Source: a virus. From it: a stretch of DNA of 41,937 nt. Position 1 is the first letter of the stretch; each line of letters opens with the position of its first letter. This document shows positions 35,216-39,964 of this stretch, one piece after another. Location of the stretch: the UHGV virus genome UHGV-0025826, one strand, 5' to 3'. The notes below the pieces were generated by a model. It worked only from the letters and a program-made list of their open reading frames with translations. It did no database searches and was not told the origin of the DNA. The translations under genes were made by a program, and so were the position numbers.

Positions 35216-35377
35216 ATGTTAGACAAGAAATGCGGATATTGCGGCAAGCCGGTTAAAACGGAGGAAGTAATCAAGAGCACCCTTCTCTATCGCAACGGCT
35301 CACAGCTGGCGCGCAAAGAAAAAGAGTATTGCTCCAAACGTTGCGCTTCGCACGACCAGATGGCTCACGAAGGCTAA
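35216..35377 (+). CDS. Small Cys4 zinc-ribbon-like protein (53 aa)
   Basis: MLDKKCGYCGK...EYCSKRCASHDQ; GGAGGA 7 nt upstream of ATG; below the ORF-track size cut-off. Confidence 0.35.
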   Translation: MLDKKCGYCGKPVKTEEVIKSTLLYRNGSQLARKEKEYCSKRCASHDQMAHEG

Positions 35378-35516: not shown

Positions 35517-38500
35517 ATGGAATTCTTTAATGTGGTTAAAGCCACTCAGAAATCCGGAAAGCAAGATGCAGTGGTCTGGTTCACTGCTAAAACCGAGGCT
35601 CGCGCCAATCTGATGCTGGATGTTGCGCTGGAAGATGCAGGTATCGAAACAGGTCGGGGTAAGGACTACGCCAAACCGATTCGCACTGATTTCCCAGTTG
35701 TCGACGGTCTGCCGAAAGAAGGTGAAGTTGATTTTACCTGGTGTGATCGCTACGAGCTTCAGGACGATGGGCGCACCTGGCTGCCAAAAGCCGCTGGTGT
35801 GTCTACTGGTTCCGTTGACGCCCCCTACACACCTACTCCGACCGTAATCGTTGAAGATGCGACTGCGTCCGAAATTGTCCCGGTTGAAAACCGTACTCCA
35901 GCGGTCCGCTTTGCCGTCCATCTGATGAACGATAAATACCAAACCCACGTCACTAAAGAGCAGCAGTTGGCTGCCAGCGAAATGTCACTGGATGAAGGCA
36001 ATACATATCTCCATAGCCTGCTTGTGGCAAGGAACGATGTGCCCGCGACCGCCAAACTCAGCCTGAATGCTGAGTGGAAAATGATTCGGGCGGTTAAGGA
36101 CATTTTCACACCAGACGAAGAGCACGAACCAAGATTGATCGCTGCATTCATGTCTGACTGGGTGAACACCGATGCCGGTGACCGCAATCAACTGGTAGAA
36201 GACTGGCGCAGTGGTAAGTTGCAGTTGCTCAAAACTGAAACCAGCAACGCTGCTGACGTTACAACTGGTCAAGATCTCACTGTTGAGGACGGTATCCAGA
36301 CCGACGAGAACGGCCGGGCAGAAGGTGGCGTCGTTGATGGTGAAGTCGATACCGAAGAGCAATCCCAGCAGACACAGCAACCGAACCTGATCGTTGTTGC
36401 CACCCTGCCATTCCGCCAGCGCGTACTGGCTCAGTTCATCGGTGATGGTGAATATCTCTATCACATCGACGCAGGGCAGAAAAATGAGATTGTCCGCCTT
36501 GAGATGGACACCGATGACGCGTACGTCCAGAACCTGCTGCTGGCAGCTGAGAATGTGGAAGCATTCAAAAAAGCCATTGAGCACGATATTCATAAAGTCG
36601 TGAATGCCGTTAAGAAAGTCTTCCCTGTCGATGGTAAAAAACCGGAGCTGGCAACAGTTATCCAGTTCCTGACTGTGTGGTTCAACACTGATTACATCGA
36701 CCGTGGCCTGCTGGTCAAGGAATGGCAGAAAGGTAACCGCGTTGCGCAGATTCAACGTACTGACGTCAAAACCAATGCTGGCGGTGGAAATAAGACCGAT
36801 CGTAATACCGACTATGTCCACACACTGGACACTTTGGATGTTGAAATTGCGCTGGCCACCTTGCCAATGGATTTCAATATCTACGACATACCTGGTGGGG
36901 TCTACCGTCGCGCTAAAGAGATTGTCAGCAAGAAAGAAAGTCCGTTCAGCGAATGGTCTGAGGCGCTGCGCAAAACCGCTGGCATCCTGGACTATTCACG
37001 CGCCGCCATCTTTGCACTCATCCGCGGCACATCATCAGAATTGGTTAACTTTCCTGGGCGGTTGCGGGCATATATCAATGCCAATCTAACCGAAAATGAC
37101 CACTCAAACCTCTCAGAAGAAACGCTGGCTGATGCTGGTCATGCGCCGGACGTCAGCTGGGAAAATGAGGTTAATGAGCAGGTCGCTGCAGAGCAGAAAA
37201 CAGCTGCTAAACAGCCACAAATCGCCAACATGGGCAACGGCGTATTCTCCATTGATGGCCTGATGGGCGATCAACAAACACAAACAGATAACCGTTCACC
37301 ACTTAATGAGGAAACCACCAGCAATGTGCAGATGGAAGAAACTGTCAGTGATGAAGAACAGGCTGGTGATGAAGTGCAGTCAGGCGAAAGCAGTCTGGAA
37401 ACTGGTGAAGAGTCACATACCGGCCAGCAAGCCGATGTGAGCCAGAATGCGGATTCTGTTAGCCAAAACAGCGATTCTGTAAACCAAACCGAACCGGTTG
37501 CGGCCCAAACCGAGCCAGAAGCTCAATCTGACGAACCGGGTGTTGTGTACCCTGCTTACTTCGAACCTGGCCGCTATGAAGGTCTGCCGAACGAGGTTTA
37601 CCACGCTGCCAACGGCATCAGTTCCACCCAGGTAAAAGATGCGCGCGTTTCGCTGATGTACTTCAATGCGCGCCACGTTGAGAAAACCATCGTCAAAGAG
37701 CGCTCCTCAGTGCTGGACATGGGAAACCTGGTACATGCGCTGGCGTTGCAGCCAGAACAGCTCGATGAAGAATTTAGCGTTGAACCCGTAATTCCGGAAG
37801 GTGCATTTACCACCACGGCAACGATCCGCGCGTTTATTGATGAGTACAACGCCAGCCTGCCAGCGCAACTGAGCGCAGACGATATCAAAGCTTTGCTGGA
37901 TGAATACAACGCCACCCTGCCAGCGCTGGTGCCGCTGGGCGCTAGCCTGGATGAAACGGCGCAGAACTATATGGCGCTGCCAGCTGAATTCCAACGTATC
38001 GATGCAGATCAGAAGAAGACAGCAACAGCAATGAAGGCGTGCATCAAAGAGTACAACGCCACCCTGCCAGCGCAGATTAAAACCAGCGGCAGCCGCGACG
38101 CACTACTCGAACAACTTGCGATTATCAATCCTGACCTGGTCGCGCAGGAAGCTCAGAAGCTGCAACCGCTGAAAGTCTCTGGCACGAAGGCCGATCTGAT
38201 TCAGGCCGTGAAGGCAGTCAAACCAGATGCAGTGTTCGCCGACGAGCTGCTCGATGCGTGGCGCAACAACCCGGAAGGGAAAGTGCTGGTTACCCACCAG
38301 CAACTTGCCACCGCGCAGGCAATTCAGTCAGCACTGCTCTCGCACCCGACCGCAGGCATGCTGCTAACCCACCCGAGCCGCGCCGTTGAGGTGAGCTACT
38401 TTGGCTTTGACGAGGAGACGGGACTGGAAGTTCGTGTGCGCCCTGACCTTGAGATCGACCTAGACGGCGTGCGTATCGGTGCTGACCTGAAAACCATCAG

Positions 38501-38840
38501 CATGTGGAATGTTAAGCAGGAAAGCCTGCGCGCCAGGCTACACCGGGAAATTATTGAACGTGATTATCACCTGAGCGCGGCTATGTACTGCGAAACCGCA
38601 GCGCTGGATCAGTTCTTCTGGATTTTCGTCAACAAAGACGAGAACTACCACTGGATCGCCATCATCGAGGCATCCGCTGAACTACTGGAGCTGGGTATGC
38701 TCGAGTACCGCAAAGCGATGCGCAATATCGCAACCGGATTCGACACAGGTGAATGGCCAGCGCCAATCACTGCTGACTACACCGACGAACTGAACGACTT
38801 CGACCTGCGCCGCCTTGAAGCGCTGCGTACTCAGGCATAA
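35517..38840 (+). CDS. RecE-like exonuclease (exonuclease VIII-type, long N-terminal extension)
   Basis: 1107 aa; acidic low-complexity middle; directly upstream of a RecT/Redbeta-like annealase; GAGGA RBS; nuclease-domain assignment is positional. Confidence 0.55.
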   Translation: MEFFNVVKATQKSGKQDAVVWFTAKTEARANLMLDVALEDAGIETGRGKDYAKPIRTDFPVVDGLPKEGEVDFTWCDRYELQDDGRTWLPKAAGVSTGSVDAPYTPTPTVIVEDATASEIVPVENRTPAVRFAVHLMNDKYQTHVTKEQQLAASEMSLDEGNTYLHSLLVARNDVPATAKLSLNAEWKMIRAVKDIFTPDEEHEPRLIAAFMSDWVNTDAGDRNQLVEDWRSGKLQLLKTETSNAADVTTGQDLTVEDGIQTDENGRAEGGVVDGEVDTEEQSQQTQQPNLIVVATLPFRQRVLAQFIGDGEYLYHIDAGQKNEIVRLEMDTDDAYVQNLLLAAENVEAFKKAIEHDIHKVVNAVKKVFPVDGKKPELATVIQFLTVWFNTDYIDRGLLVKEWQKGNRVAQIQRTDVKTNAGGGNKTDRNTDYVHTLDTLDVEIALATLPMDFNIYDIPGGVYRRAKEIVSKKESPFSEWSEALRKTAGILDYSRAAIFALIRGTSSELVNFPGRLRAYINANLTENDHSNLSEETLADAGHAPDVSWENEVNEQVAAEQKTAAKQPQIANMGNGVFSIDGLMGDQQTQTDNRSPLNEETTSNVQMEETVSDEEQAGDEVQSGESSLETGEESHTGQQADVSQNADSVSQNSDSVNQTEPVAAQTEPEAQSDEPGVVYPAYFEPGRYEGLPNEVYHAANGISSTQVKDARVSLMYFNARHVEKTIVKERSSVLDMGNLVHALALQPEQLDEEFSVEPVIPEGAFTTTATIRAFIDEYNASLPAQLSADDIKALLDEYNATLPALVPLGASLDETAQNYMALPAEFQRIDADQKKTATAMKACIKEYNATLPAQIKTSGSRDALLEQLAIINPDLVAQEAQKLQPLKVSGTKADLIQAVKAVKPDAVFADELLDAWRNNPEGKVLVTHQQLATAQAIQSALLSHPTAGMLLTHPSRAVEVSYFGFDEETGLEVRVRPDLEIDLDGVRIGADLKTISMWNVKQESLRARLHREIIERDYHLSAAMYCETAALDQFFWIFVNKDENYHWIAIIEASAELLELGMLEYRKAMRNIATGFDTGEWPAPITADYTDELNDFDLRRLEALRTQA

Positions 38841-38845
38841 GGGGA

Positions 38846-39964
38846 ATGATGATGGAAAACACGAATATCGTAACCGCTGAACAGCAGACTCCAAACACGA
38901 TCTCAGCCAGCAATGCCATTTTCAACGTGCAGGCTTTAACCCAGCTTCAGTCTGTCGCCGGGTTGATGGCACAGGCAGCCGTAACGGTGCCTGAGCACCT
39001 CCGCGGCAATCCGGCAGACTGCATGGCCATCATCATGCAGGCGATGCAGTGGGGTATGAACCCTTACGCCGTGGCGCAAAAGACGCACCTGGTTAATGGT
39101 GTCCTGGGATACGAAGCGCAACTGGTTAATGCGGTGATCTCCAGCTCAAACGCCATCGTTGGCCGCTTTCACTATGAGTACGAGGGCGACTGGTCGAAAT
39201 GTGCCAGCAGCCGCGAGATAACCGTTAAAAAGCCTGCGAAAGGTGGCGGGACGTACGACAAGAAAGAAATGGTACGCGGTTGGGAAAGTGCTGATGAACA
39301 AGGACTGTCGGTACGGGTAGGTGCCGTTATTCGCGGTGAAAGTGATATCACCTGGGGAGAGCCTGTTTTCCTCTCCAGCGTAATCACACGTAATTCTCCA
39401 CTTTGGGTATCAAACCCGAAACAGCAGATCGCTTATCTGGCACTCAAATACTGGGCGCGCCTGTATTGCCCTGCAGTTGTTCTTGGTGTGTACACCCCTG
39501 ATGAGATTGAACAGCGCACAGAAAAAGAGATCAACCCAACGCCGCAACGCGTTAGCCTGGCTGATATCTCAGGTGACACCGTCACAACCACGCAAAGCGC
39601 ACAGGAATCGTCGGTAAATGTCGACTCTCTTGCCGATGATTTCCGCGAACGCATCGAATCTGCTCAGAACGTGGATAGCGCCAAATCGCTGCGTGCCGAC
39701 ATTGAAACGGCGAAAGCTACGCTGGGATCCGCACTATTCACCGAGCTGAAAAACAAAGCCGTAAAGCGTTATTACCTAGTGGATGCACGCAACAAGGTTG
39801 AGGAGGCTATTAAATCCCTGCCCCAGCCCGACGAGCCGCATGCATCCGAACGGTTCGCTGAAGCCGAGCGCATGCTTGCATCTTCAAAGCGTCACTTAGG
39901 CGATGAACTGCACGATCAATTCAGCATCACCCTGGCGGATATGAAACCGGAATACGTGGCCTGA
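38846..39964 (+). CDS. Single-strand annealing protein (RecT/Redbeta family)
   Basis: 372 aa; AMQWGMNPYAV resembles lambda Bet ANQYGLNPWTK and RecT; immediately downstream of the exonuclease. Confidence 0.6.
   Translation: MMMENTNIVTAEQQTPNTISASNAIFNVQALTQLQSVAGLMAQAAVTVPEHLRGNPADCMAIIMQAMQWGMNPYAVAQKTHLVNGVLGYEAQLVNAVISSSNAIVGRFHYEYEGDWSKCASSREITVKKPAKGGGTYDKKEMVRGWESADEQGLSVRVGAVIRGESDITWGEPVFLSSVITRNSPLWVSNPKQQIAYLALKYWARLYCPAVVLGVYTPDEIEQRTEKEINPTPQRVSLADISGDTVTTTQSAQESSVNVDSLADDFRERIESAQNVDSAKSLRADIETAKATLGSALFTELKNKAVKRYYLVDARNKVEEAIKSLPQPDEPHASERFAEAERMLASSKRHLGDELHDQFSITLADMKPEYVA

What the first reader, a model, noticed from the sequence alone, without database searches (positions are those of the whole stretch)
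35517..39964. Unusually long RecE-like exonuclease with three intragenic repeats, paired with a RecT/Redbeta-like annealase
The exonuclease ORF is 1107 aa, with a long acidic low-complexity N-terminal and middle region and a near-identical roughly 25-bp element (gagtacaacgccaSCctgccagcgc) repeated three times at about 37842, 37902 and 38049, encoding EYNA(S/T)LPA. With the downstream annealase this forms a RecET-type recombineering module; the extension and repeats are unexplained.
Basis: partly seen in the sequence, partly recalled or inferred. Interest (0 to 1): 0.45.

Follow-up and report, generated by a model that had tools for sequence, protein, structure and literature searches.

The report
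Prophage RecE/RecT with SAP-like rim array
This is an ordinary, already annotated prophage RecE exonuclease and RecT annealase pair. The three repeats belong to a helical array, derived from a SAP DNA-binding motif, that replaces the DNA-capturing loop at the mouth of the nuclease ring.

Summary
ORF 35517-38840 encodes 1107 aa. A 25-nt element occurs at exactly 37842, 37902 and 38049, with none expected by chance. A RecT gene follows at 38846-39964.

The interpretation as a RecET module holds:
- Pfam matches Exonuc_VIII and DUF3799/PD-(D/E)XK.
- The catalytic residues H740, D977, D990 and K992 are conserved.
- The DNA is 100% identical to an E. coli VE-F5 prophage and 98% to phage HK225, both annotated RecE/RecT.

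The protein is long only compared with K-12 RecE (866 aa). The median among 68 species representatives is 992 aa, and 9 reach 1107 aa or more. The extra length has two sources:
- a second copy of a ~115-aa N-terminal unit;
- a 163-aa helical array (aa 758-920) that replaces the 23-aa core of K-12's rim loop (residues 665-698), which is presumed to capture dsDNA.

The three repeats are copies of helix 1 of a SAP-like helix-loop-helix. Homologues carry 8 to 207 aa at this site, and in some of them it is a bona fide single SAP domain. The array grows and shrinks by in-frame unit duplication and deletion.

The likely function is dsDNA-end capture or processivity, which is inferred and untested. 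Interest is low to moderate.

The parts
35517..38840 (+). recE: RecE-family 5'-3' dsDNA exonuclease, 1107 aa
   Evidence: ORF. Pfam, PHROG and NCBIfam matches. RefSeq names it 'RecE family exodeoxyribonuclease' WP_001767220.1. 98% DNA identity to HK225 RecE.
35526..35819 (+). N-terminal Exonuc_VIII (PF06630) segment, aa 4-101
   Evidence: E 1.7e-33. It aligns to K-12 RecE N-terminus (window aa 3-251 to K-12 aa 6-248).
35910..36239 (+). N-terminal ~115-aa unit, copy 1 (aa 132-241), function unknown
   Evidence: Smith-Waterman score against copy 2 is 127, versus 26.7 +/- 4.0 for shuffles. The jackhmmer domain covers aa 132-241. K-12 RecE has one such unit.
36240..36410 (+). acidic polar linker 1 (aa 242-298)
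   Evidence: D+E 0.21, K+R 0.02, S+T+Q+N+G 0.46.
36411..36776 (+). N-terminal ~115-aa unit, copy 2 (aa 299-420)
   Evidence: Its first 42 residues match the end of PF06630 (profile 152-203, E 1e-8).
36777..37181 (+). conserved middle region (aa 421-555), function unknown
   Evidence: It lies within the stretch (window aa 357-537) that is 39% identical to K-12 RecE aa 182-363. No Pfam match.
37182..37553 (+). acidic polar linker 2 (aa 556-679)
   Evidence: D+E 0.20, K+R 0.02.
37554..37787 (+). PD-(D/E)XK nuclease core, N-terminal part (aa 680-757), including H740
   Evidence: Aligns to K-12 RecE aa 596-669; H740 corresponds to K-12 H652.
37788..38276 (+). 163-aa helical array (aa 758-920) inserted in the nuclease domain. 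It takes the place of K-12 RecE aa 670-692, inside the rim loop 665-698.
   Evidence: Mapping. The rim loop is described in PMC11611040 section 2.3. AF2 predicts 8 helices at pLDDT 87. Homologues carry 8-207 aa at this site.
37842..37866 (+). 25-nt repeat copy 1; encodes EYNASLPA (aa 776-783), the C-terminal end of helix 767-780 and the following loop
37902..37926 (+). 25-nt repeat copy 2; encodes EYNATLPA (aa 796-803), the end of helix 787-800
38049..38073 (+). 25-nt repeat copy 3; encodes EYNATLPA (aa 845-852), the end of helix 836-849, which is helix 1 of the complete SAP-like unit
38022..38126 (+). complete SAP-like unit C (aa 836-870): helix, LPAQIKTSGS loop, helix
   Evidence: hhalign against bona fide SAP inserts of homologues gives probability 93%, E 3.3e-7. 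Against the 56-aa single-unit inserts it gives 96.8%, E 2.9e-10. This is the most conserved part of the array.
38154..38219 (+). SAP-like loop and helix 2 of unit D (aa 880-901, ..PLKVSGTKADLIQAVKAV)
   Evidence: Sub-threshold Pfam SAP match, 16.8 bits, E 0.0055, to profile positions 19-32. 5 of 10 homologous units also give weak SAP hits.
38277..38837 (+). PD-(D/E)XK nuclease core, C-terminal part (aa 921-1107), with D977, D990 and K992
38846..39964 (+). recT: RecT-family single-strand annealing protein, 372 aa. The RecT domain is aa 39-228; aa 229-372 form a C-terminal extension.
   Evidence: Pfam PF03837 E 2.5e-36 and phrog_561 E 7.7e-165. RefSeq names it 'RecT family recombinase' and starts it 6 nt downstream. 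48% identical to the RecT next to the UMNF18 RecE; no BLAST hit to K-12 RecT.

Best explanation
This is the RecE/RecT recombination module of the early-left operon of an HK225/Gifsy-1-type lambdoid prophage.

By homology with Rac RecE, RecE is a 5'-3' dsDNA exonuclease that acts as a ring, and RecT anneals the 3' ssDNA tail that it exposes.

The three near-identical 25-nt elements are not a separate feature. Each encodes the C-terminal end of a 14-residue helix and its cap, (I/L)xxxIxEYNA(S/T)LP. The three helices lie inside a 163-aa, eight-helix array (aa 758-920) that is inserted in the PD-(D/E)XK nuclease domain.

The array sits where K-12 RecE has its disordered loop (residues 665-698). 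[quoted passage not shown]

The array descends from a single SAP (helix-extended loop-helix) DNA-binding motif that more distant homologues still carry at this site. It was built up by in-frame duplication of 20-aa 'helix 1' units and 31-aa 'loop-helix 2' units. It still varies among relatives (55-56, 103-105, 153-155 and 203-207 aa).

Inferred mechanism: the SAP-like loops KTSGSR and KVSGTK, with their invariant lysines, sit at the channel mouth. There they grip the duplex and help each subunit of the ring capture and hold a dsDNA end. The acidic helices 1 and 2 act as a scaffold.

Shown here: gene identity, nuclease fold, position of the insert, repeat anatomy, SAP ancestry and copy-number variation. 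Inferred: DNA binding by the array, and its effect on end capture or processivity.
For: Identity
- Pfam, PHROG and PDB matches.
- Catalytic residues H740, D977, D990 and K992 are conserved.
- 100% and 98% DNA identity to annotated RecE/RecT records.
- A RecT homologue lies immediately downstream in nearly all of 70 species-representative loci.

Position of the insert
- Window aa 752-757 aligns with K-12 aa 664-669, and aa 921-926 with K-12 aa 693-698. Therefore aa 758-920 replace K-12 aa 670-692.
- That stretch lies inside the loop that the Bell/Tolun review describes as projecting from the channel rim to capture dsDNA (PMC11611040 section 2.3).

Fold
- AF2 predicts eight helices with pLDDT of about 87-90 for the array.

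SAP ancestry
- Single-unit inserts at the same site in distant homologues pass Pfam SAP (PF02037: 33.6-38.5 bits against a cut-off of 23.9).
- hhalign links canonical SAP inserts to the 56-aa inserts (97.7%, E 2e-12).
- It links the 56-aa inserts to window unit C (96.8%, E 2.9e-10).
- It links unit C to canonical SAP inserts (93%, E 3.3e-7).

Constraint
- Unit C is about as conserved as the nuclease core (0.70 against 0.71-0.73).
- K833, K844, K855, K881, K891 and both S-G turns are invariant in 25 sequences at 50-93% identity.

Modular growth
- P0267 lacks exactly the 49 aa (147 nt) between copies 2 and 3.
- P0238 and L049 have one extra 20-aa unit and one extra 31-aa unit.
Against: - No experiment or structure with DNA exists for this subfamily.
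- The window's own array does not reach the Pfam SAP threshold: 16.8 bits against 23.9, and only the second half of the profile matches.
- The array is net acidic: about 23 D+E against 15 K+R overall (fractions 0.14 and 0.09 of 163 aa). Units A, B and the adjoining linker (aa 765-834) together have 11 D+E against 5 K+R. That is unfavourable for DNA binding.
- Only units C and D are roughly neutral (9 K+R against 7 D+E).
- The position of the array relative to the channel rests on an alignment to K-12 RecE and on a review's description. It does not come from a multimer model.
- The oligomeric state of this subfamily is unknown.
Confidence: 0.72

Rival explanations
1. The array is a protein-protein docking platform. 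It would bind the C-terminal domain of the cognate RecT, or host SSB or another factor, and so set partner specificity. It would not be a DNA-binding element.
For: - RecE/RecT pairs are partner-specific (established knowledge).
- The UMNF18 Rac-like RecE has a K-12-like N-terminus but a window-like nuclease domain with the array. It is followed by a long RecT that is 48% identical to the window's, not by a K-12-type RecT. The nuclease domain and RecT therefore travel together.
- Units A and B are acidic, which suits protein contacts better than DNA contacts.
- The C-terminal half of RecT (aa ~148-371) is the part conserved across all partners.
Against: - RecT type does not co-vary with array size. 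L062 has only the 56-aa single unit, yet its RecT matches the window RecT at 576 bits over its full length. L064 and L073 (56 and 55 aa) also keep the same RecT C-terminal half.
- The most conserved elements are the SAP-like G-x-K/R loops and lysines.
Confidence: 0.15
2. The repeats are selectively neutral decoration. A surface loop tolerated repeated in-frame duplications, and the near-identity of the DNA reflects only codon bias and occasional gene conversion, with no functional role for the array.
For: - The site tolerates anything from 8 to 207 aa, and in another clade it holds an unrelated 'KYDAWVKAGKPE' repeat of 42 to 179 aa.
- The K-12 nuclease domain works with a short loop.
- Baseline codon identity between paralogous cores from different genomes is already 0.61.
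Against: - The 153-155-aa form is kept in 62 of the 70 species-representative loci analysed across Enterobacterales. It persists down to about 50% identity, with invariant residues in every unit.
- AF2 predicts a well-ordered fold.
- Independent expansion of different repeats at the same rim site suggests selection for a larger rim structure.
Confidence: 0.1
3. The 25-nt elements act at the DNA level, for example as a recombination signal or a regulatory or binding site, and not through the protein.
For: - The three cores are nearly identical at synonymous sites in this lineage.
- Codon identity among the cores is higher within a genome than between genomes (0.687 against 0.608; 0 of 2000 permutations reached the observed value).
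Against: - The DNA of the cores diverges freely at synonymous sites in UMNF18 and PHB10, while the peptide motif is kept.
- The excess identity is explained by short-patch gene conversion. Copies 2 and 3 are identical in mEp237 (shared Pro-Pro), in L014 (shared His in place of Tyr) and in L019.
- The permutation test is also confounded by genome-specific codon usage.
Confidence: 0.03

Closest known systems
RecE/RecT of phage HK225 and the Gifsy-1/Gifsy-2 prophages (the 'Gifsy-1' class of lambdoid Rec modules, which has no anti-RecBCD gene)
   Same: - Same subfamily and same architecture.
- 98.4% DNA identity to HK225 RecE/RecT; about 76% DNA identity to Gifsy-1 over the nuclease half and recT.
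- Same 154-aa array with the same three helix-1 repeats.
- Same gene order, ydaE-recE-recT-(DUF4060)-int.
- Abundant Chi sites, as reported for this class.
   Different: Essentially nothing. HK225 RecE is 22 aa longer and 85.5% identical at the protein level. Gifsy-1 differs in its N-terminal region.
E. coli K-12 Rac prophage RecE (exonuclease VIII, PDB 3H4R) with RecT
   Same: - Same catalytic residues.
- Homologous N-terminal Exonuc_VIII region.
- Same position in the early-left operon next to an annealase.
   Different: - K-12 RecE is 866 aa and has one N-terminal ~115-aa unit instead of two.
- It has a 23-aa segment, inside the disordered rim loop 665-698, where the window has the 163-aa array.
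- Its linker carries a Cys-rich CxxC...CxxC stretch.
- The nuclease cores are only 22-29% identical.
- The NCBIfam equivalog model for K-12 RecE is not met (556 bits against 1269).
- K-12 RecT (269 aa) gives no BLAST hit to the window RecT.
Lambda Exo / Red-beta
   Different: Lambda Exo is a 226-aa single-domain trimer. It has no N-terminal region and no rim array.
SAP domains attached to DNA-end or structure-specific DNA enzymes (Ku70 C-terminal SAP; FAN1 SAP, where FAN1 is itself a PD-(D/E)XK nuclease)
   Same: - A helix-extended loop-helix motif with a G-x-K loop, placed beside a DNA-end-processing machine.
- The Ku SAP domain facilitates loading onto DNA ends (PMC10681742, title and abstract).
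- One homologous unit D gives a weak FANC_SAP hit (E 0.02).
   Different: - Here the motif is inserted inside the nuclease fold, not appended to it.
- It is multiplied into partial units (three helix-1 copies and two loop-helix-2 copies).
- The helix 1-to-Gly segment is 6-8 residues longer than in canonical SAP; hhalign places 6 of them, ATLPAQ, as an insertion.
- It does not reach the Pfam SAP threshold in this protein.

Membership tests
RecE family exonuclease (Pfam PF12684 DUF3799 / PD-(D/E)XK, with PF06630 Exonuc_VIII) | PD-(D/E)XK nuclease fold like RecE 3H4R | tested here: met
   [not shown]
RecE family exonuclease (Pfam PF12684 DUF3799 / PD-(D/E)XK, with PF06630 Exonuc_VIII) | Catalytic residues His...Asp...Asp-x-Lys (K-12 H652, D748, D759, K761) | tested here: met
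   H740 is aligned directly to K-12 H652. The R-P-D (D977) and D-x-K (D990, K992) motifs are invariant in A1 and A5.
RecE family exonuclease (Pfam PF12684 DUF3799 / PD-(D/E)XK, with PF06630 Exonuc_VIII) | N-terminal Exonuc_VIII region | tested here: met
   PF06630 scores 116.7 bits against a cut-off of 25, at aa 4-101 with a second stretch.
RecE family exonuclease (Pfam PF12684 DUF3799 / PD-(D/E)XK, with PF06630 Exonuc_VIII) | Encoded next to a cognate single-strand annealing protein in a phage early operon | tested here: met
   recT starts 5 nt after the recE stop codon. The same pairing occurs in HK225, Gifsy-1, mEp237, PHB10 and nearly all of 70 species loci.
RecE family exonuclease (Pfam PF12684 DUF3799 / PD-(D/E)XK, with PF06630 Exonuc_VIII) | Processive 5'-3' dsDNA exonuclease activity and a toroidal oligomer | not testable with these tools
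   This needs biochemistry or a multimer structure. It is inferred from homology only.
Exodeoxyribonuclease VIII equivalog (NCBIfam NF007259 / PRK09709, the K-12 RecE type) | Full-length score above the curated cut-off | tested here: not met
   556 bits against a cut-off of 1269, and only aa 261-569 match well. The protein is therefore a RecE-family member but not an equivalog of K-12 RecE, in line with the RefSeq name 'RecE family exodeoxyribonuclease'.
RecT family annealase (Pfam PF03837) | RecT domain above the gathering score | tested here: met
   125.5 bits against a cut-off of 24, at aa 39-228. phrog_561 'RecT-like ssDNA annealing protein' gives E 7.7e-165.
SAP domain (Pfam PF02037), for the array aa 758-920 | Sequence match above the Pfam gathering score | tested here: not met
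   The window array scores 16.8 bits against 23.9, and only profile positions 19-32 match. Unit C: 1 of 14 homologues reaches E 0.15. Unit D: 5 of 10 reach E 0.02-0.14.
SAP domain (Pfam PF02037), for the array aa 758-920 | Homology to bona fide SAP domains through intermediates at the same insertion site | tested here: met
   The single-unit inserts of P0358, P0362 and P0368 pass PF02037 (33.6-38.5 bits). hhalign probabilities are 97.7%, 96.8% and 93% along the chain from canonical SAP inserts to 56-aa inserts to window unit C.
SAP domain (Pfam PF02037), for the array aa 758-920 | Helix-extended loop-helix fold similar to solved SAP domains | tested here: inconclusive
   [not shown]
SAP domain (Pfam PF02037), for the array aa 758-920 | dsDNA binding | not testable with these tools
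   This needs EMSA or a structure of the isolated array, or of RecE with and without the array.

The most novel reading that the evidence does not exclude
The rim of the RecE ring is an evolvable dsDNA-capture organ. In most Enterobacterales RecE proteins a single SAP motif has been multiplied into an array whose unit number (55-56, 103-105, 153-155 or 203-207 aa) changes by short-homology unequal recombination between its own 25-nt repeats. This would tune end capture, processivity or substrate preference, for example linear-linear recombination. Natural or engineered array variants could then give better recombineering exonucleases than the K-12 enzyme.
Probability: 0.35. Interest if true: 0.45.

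Novelty: already known. Interest (0 to 1): 0.25.

Why it matters
The gene pair is a routine, correctly annotated prophage RecET module, so the finding does not reveal a new system.

What is worth keeping is an anatomical point that I did not find in the literature I could search. Most enterobacterial RecE homologues differ from K-12 RecE, the enzyme used for recombineering, exactly at the loop thought to capture dsDNA. There they carry a folded, conserved, SAP-derived array of variable unit number.

If the array does bind DNA, three things follow:
- It would explain how this larger subfamily engages DNA ends.
- It gives a natural series (56, 103, 154 and 205 aa) for testing what the rim loop does.
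- It may help in choosing or engineering RecET systems with higher processivity or different substrate preferences.

Tried and rejected
- Tandem Repeats Finder found nothing, because the repeats are dispersed.
- Self-BLASTP of RecE listed no internal repeat pair. Smith-Waterman with shuffles and jackhmmer were needed.
- RecT has no sequence match in the PDB.
- Pfam found nothing on N-terminal unit 1 or on the middle region aa 421-555. On unit 2 it found only the end of PF06630 (E 1e-8). On the RecT C-terminal extension it found only sub-threshold noise.
- The primary RecE structure paper (PMC2688778) is not held, so the review was used instead.
- Literature searches for SAP or DUF3799 together with RecE found no description of the array. 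'SAP' in PMC12315714 means strand-annealing protein.
- I tested whether RecT type co-varies with array size, as a docking-platform model would predict. It does not.
- I considered a DNA-level role for the 25-mers and rejected it, because synonymous sites diverge in UMNF18 and PHB10.
- An assembly artefact is rejected, because the repeats recur in independent genomes and phages.

Full report
**1. Observation**

The window holds an ORF at 35517-38840 (+) of 1107 aa, followed 5 nt later by an ORF at 38846-39964 (+) of 372 aa. None of 100 shuffles gave a match.

The repeat finder extends the copies to 38 nt at 82-84% identity. The spacings are 60 and 147 nt, both multiples of three. The copies are dispersed, so Tandem Repeats Finder reports nothing. 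They encode EYNASLPA (aa 776-783), EYNATLPA (aa 796-803) and EYNATLPA (aa 845-852).

The 'acidic low-complexity' description fits two linkers, aa 242-298 and aa 556-679 (D+E about 0.20, K+R 0.02). It does not fit the N-terminus, which has the composition of a folded domain.

**2. Identity**

- The long protein matches Pfam Exonuc_VIII (aa 4-101, E 1.7e-33) and DUF3799/PDDEXK (aa 922-1082, E 4e-11). The second protein matches Pfam RecT (aa 39-228, E 2.5e-36).
- PHROGs gives 'exonuclease' (1300 bits) and 'RecT-like ssDNA annealing protein' (E 7.7e-165).
- The catalytic residues are conserved: H740, D977, D990 and K992 correspond to K-12 H652, D748, D759 and K761.
- The DNA is 100% identical to a prophage of E. 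coli VE-F5, where RefSeq annotates 'RecE family exodeoxyribonuclease' and 'RecT family recombinase'. It is 98.4% identical to phage HK225, annotated RecE and RecT in 2012.
- The window is that whole prophage, inserted between yciI and kch. The genes sit in the early-left operon in the order ydaE-recE-recT-DUF4060-int.

The RecET interpretation stands.

The NCBIfam equivalog model for K-12 RecE is not met (556 bits against 1269). The protein is therefore a family member, not an ortholog-grade copy of Rac RecE.

**3. Why it is long**

Compared with K-12 RecE (866 aa), three things differ.

- A ~115-aa N-terminal unit of unknown function is present twice, at aa 132-241 and aa 299-420. The Smith-Waterman score between the copies is 127, against 26.7 +/- 4.0 for shuffles. 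An acidic linker separates them. K-12 has one copy.
- The nuclease domain carries a large insert, described in section 4.
- The inter-domain linker is shorter and lacks K-12's Cys-rich stretch.

Within its own subfamily the length is unremarkable. In 68 homologues from species-representative genomes the median is 992 aa, the interquartile range is 940-1077, the maximum is 1243, and 9 are 1107 aa or longer. The N-terminal unit occurs 0, 1, 2 or 3 times in 18, 33, 20 and 2 of the 73 loci scanned.

**4. Where the repeats sit**

phmmer against 3H4R splits the nuclease domain into two stretches. Window aa 693-815 aligns to chain residues 5-124, and aa 920-1085 aligns to chain residues 91-252.

Direct alignment fixes the boundaries:
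- Window EFSVEP (aa 752-757) matches K-12 RFIVAP (aa 664-669).
- Window GKVLVT (aa 921-926) matches K-12 GKTVIT (aa 693-698).

Hence window aa 758-920 (163 aa, holding all three repeats) take the place of K-12 aa 670-692 (23 aa).

[quoted passage not shown] They are disordered in the crystal and become partly ordered when DNA is present (PMC11611040 section 2.3). The repeats therefore belong to an elaborated version of that rim loop.

**5. What the insert is**

AF2 predicts eight helices with high confidence: pLDDT 87 for the insert alone and about 90 in the context of the domain. The helices are 767-780, 787-800, 811-819, 836-849, 860-870, 872-879, 891-901 and 908-917. Each 25-nt repeat encodes the end of one 14-residue helix (the first, second and fourth) and its cap, Y-N-A-S/T-L-P.

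A scan of 1.84 billion representative proteins found 2843 relatives of the nuclease domain. At this site they carry anything from 8 to 207 aa:
- 8-15 aa, compact like K-12.
- 46-57 aa, a single unit.
- 103-105 aa.
- 153-157 aa, the window's form.
- 203-207 aa.
- In one other clade, an unrelated 'KYDAWVKAGKPE' repeat of 42, 85, 132 or 179 aa.

The single-unit inserts of the distant homologues P0358, P0362 and P0368 are bona fide SAP domains (PF02037: 33.6-38.5 bits against a cut-off of 23.9).

Profile-profile comparisons then link the forms:
- canonical SAP inserts to the 56-aa inserts: 97.7%, E 2e-12;
- the 56-aa inserts to the window's unit C, aa 836-880: 96.8%, E 2.9e-10;
- unit C to canonical SAP inserts: 93%, E 3.3e-7, with 'ATLPAQ' as a 6-residue loop insertion.

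Its composition is three copies of SAP helix 1 (the repeats), one linker helix, two copies of the SAP loop plus helix 2 (KTSGSR..., KVSGTK...) and a return helix.

**6. How the array evolves**

- P0267 (105 aa) lacks exactly the 49 aa (147 nt) between repeat copies 2 and 3.
- P0238 and L049 (205 aa) have one extra 20-aa helix-1 unit and one extra 31-aa loop-helix-2 unit. In L049 these are nearly identical to their neighbours.
- L065 and L067 (103 aa) lack unit B and one loop-helix-2 unit.

Among the 70 species-representative Enterobacterales loci analysed, 62 have 153-155 aa, three have 55-56 aa, two have 103 aa and one has 205 aa. In two further loci the insert could not be measured.

At the DNA level the three cores are nearly identical in the window and in HK225, but they diverge at synonymous sites in UMNF18 and PHB10. 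Some lineages show identical copies 2 and 3 that share lineage-specific residues: Pro-Pro in mEp237 and His in L014. Codon identity within a genome (0.687) exceeds identity between genomes (0.608), and 0 of 2000 permutations reached the observed value.

This points to occasional short-patch gene conversion on top of strong amino-acid constraint and codon bias. The permutation test is confounded by genome-specific codon usage, so I treat it as supportive only.

**7. Mechanism**

Shown here: the enzyme family, the fold, the insert position, the repeat anatomy, the SAP ancestry and the modular copy-number variation.

Inferred: the array rings the channel entrance and helps capture or hold the duplex.

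In favour:
- The position coincides with the presumed DNA-capturing loop.
- The array derives from a DNA-binding motif.
- Unit C is about as conserved as the nuclease core (0.70 against 0.71-0.73).
- Lysines K833, K844, K855, K881 and K891 and both S-G turns are invariant across 25 sequences at 50-93% identity.
- There is an analogy with SAP domains on Ku. From my own knowledge, the PD-(D/E)XK nuclease FAN1 also carries one.

Against:
- The array is net acidic, especially units A and B.
- No DNA-bound structure or multimer model exists.

The main rival is a docking platform for RecT. It is weakened because loci with the 56-aa unit have essentially the same RecT: the L062 RecT matches the window RecT at 576 bits over its full length. 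The nuclease domain as a whole does co-segregate with RecT type, as the UMNF18 chimera shows.

**8. Comparison and novelty**

The module is a known, annotated RecET system of the Gifsy-1/HK225 type. That class was recently catalogued as a lambdoid Rec module without an anti-RecBCD gene (PMC12315714).

It works like Rac RecE/RecT and like lambda Exo/Beta. It differs from the characterised K-12 enzyme in the extra N-terminal unit and in the rim array.

I found no description of the array in the searchable literature. It is nevertheless a feature of hundreds of database sequences, not of this window in particular.

Verdict: already known as a system. The anatomy of the repeats is a modest, useful clarification with a testable functional hypothesis.

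Noticed in passing
window 1-41937; the two sites inside recE are 37315-37322 and 38294-38301, minus strand: There are 14 Chi sites (GCTGGTGG) in the 42-kb prophage against 1.1 expected, and 12 of them are on the minus strand. No Gam/Abc2-type anti-RecBCD gene is annotated. This fits the 'Gifsy-1 class' of Chi-rich lambdoid phages without anti-RecBCD described in PMC12315714.
   Followed up: partly
window 1-41937 (NZ_AP027953.1 2632825-2674761): The window is essentially one complete prophage inserted between yciI and kch, the phi80/HK225/mEp237 attachment site. A DNA invertase and tail-fibre genes lie at one end and the integrase at the other.
   Followed up: partly
L002 1174-5360 (E. coli UMNF18 Rac-like prophage): This recE is a chimera. 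Its N-terminal ~600 aa are K-12 Rac-like, while its nuclease domain (51% identical to the window's, with the same 154-aa array) and the following 350-aa RecT are of the window type. The recombination boundary lies in the acidic linker inside recE, so the nuclease domain and recT move as one unit.
   Followed up: partly
proteins P0290-P0320, same insertion site as window aa 758-920: A different clade of RecE-like nucleases carries an unrelated repeat, 'KYDAWVKAGKPENQ(S/N)LKP...', at the same rim site, in 42-, 85-, 132- and 179-aa versions. This is an independent expansion of the rim loop.
   Followed up: no
L004 5787-8387 (K-12 recE), protein aa ~520-540: The inter-domain linker of K-12 RecE contains CNACGQTGGDNCPDCG, which looks like a zinc ribbon. 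The window's protein has no such stretch, only an acidic, polar linker.
   Followed up: no
window 38846-39964 (recT) and loci L010-L089: RecT homologues next to these exonucleases fall into two groups. Some match the window RecT over its full length. Others match strongly only over aa ~147-371. This suggests that the N-terminal ~145 aa are exchanged while the C-terminal half is kept.
   Followed up: no
window 35910-36239 and 36411-36776: The N-terminal region of RecE, whose function is unknown in the literature, contains a ~115-aa unit that occurs 0 to 3 times among homologues. No Pfam family covers the unit, apart from the tail of PF06630.
   Followed up: partly
window 35216-35377: A small Cys-rich ORF of 53 aa, annotated as a YdaE family protein, lies just upstream of recE, as ydaE does in Rac. 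The ydaE-recE-recT order is conserved even though the recE and recT sequences have diverged greatly.
   Followed up: no
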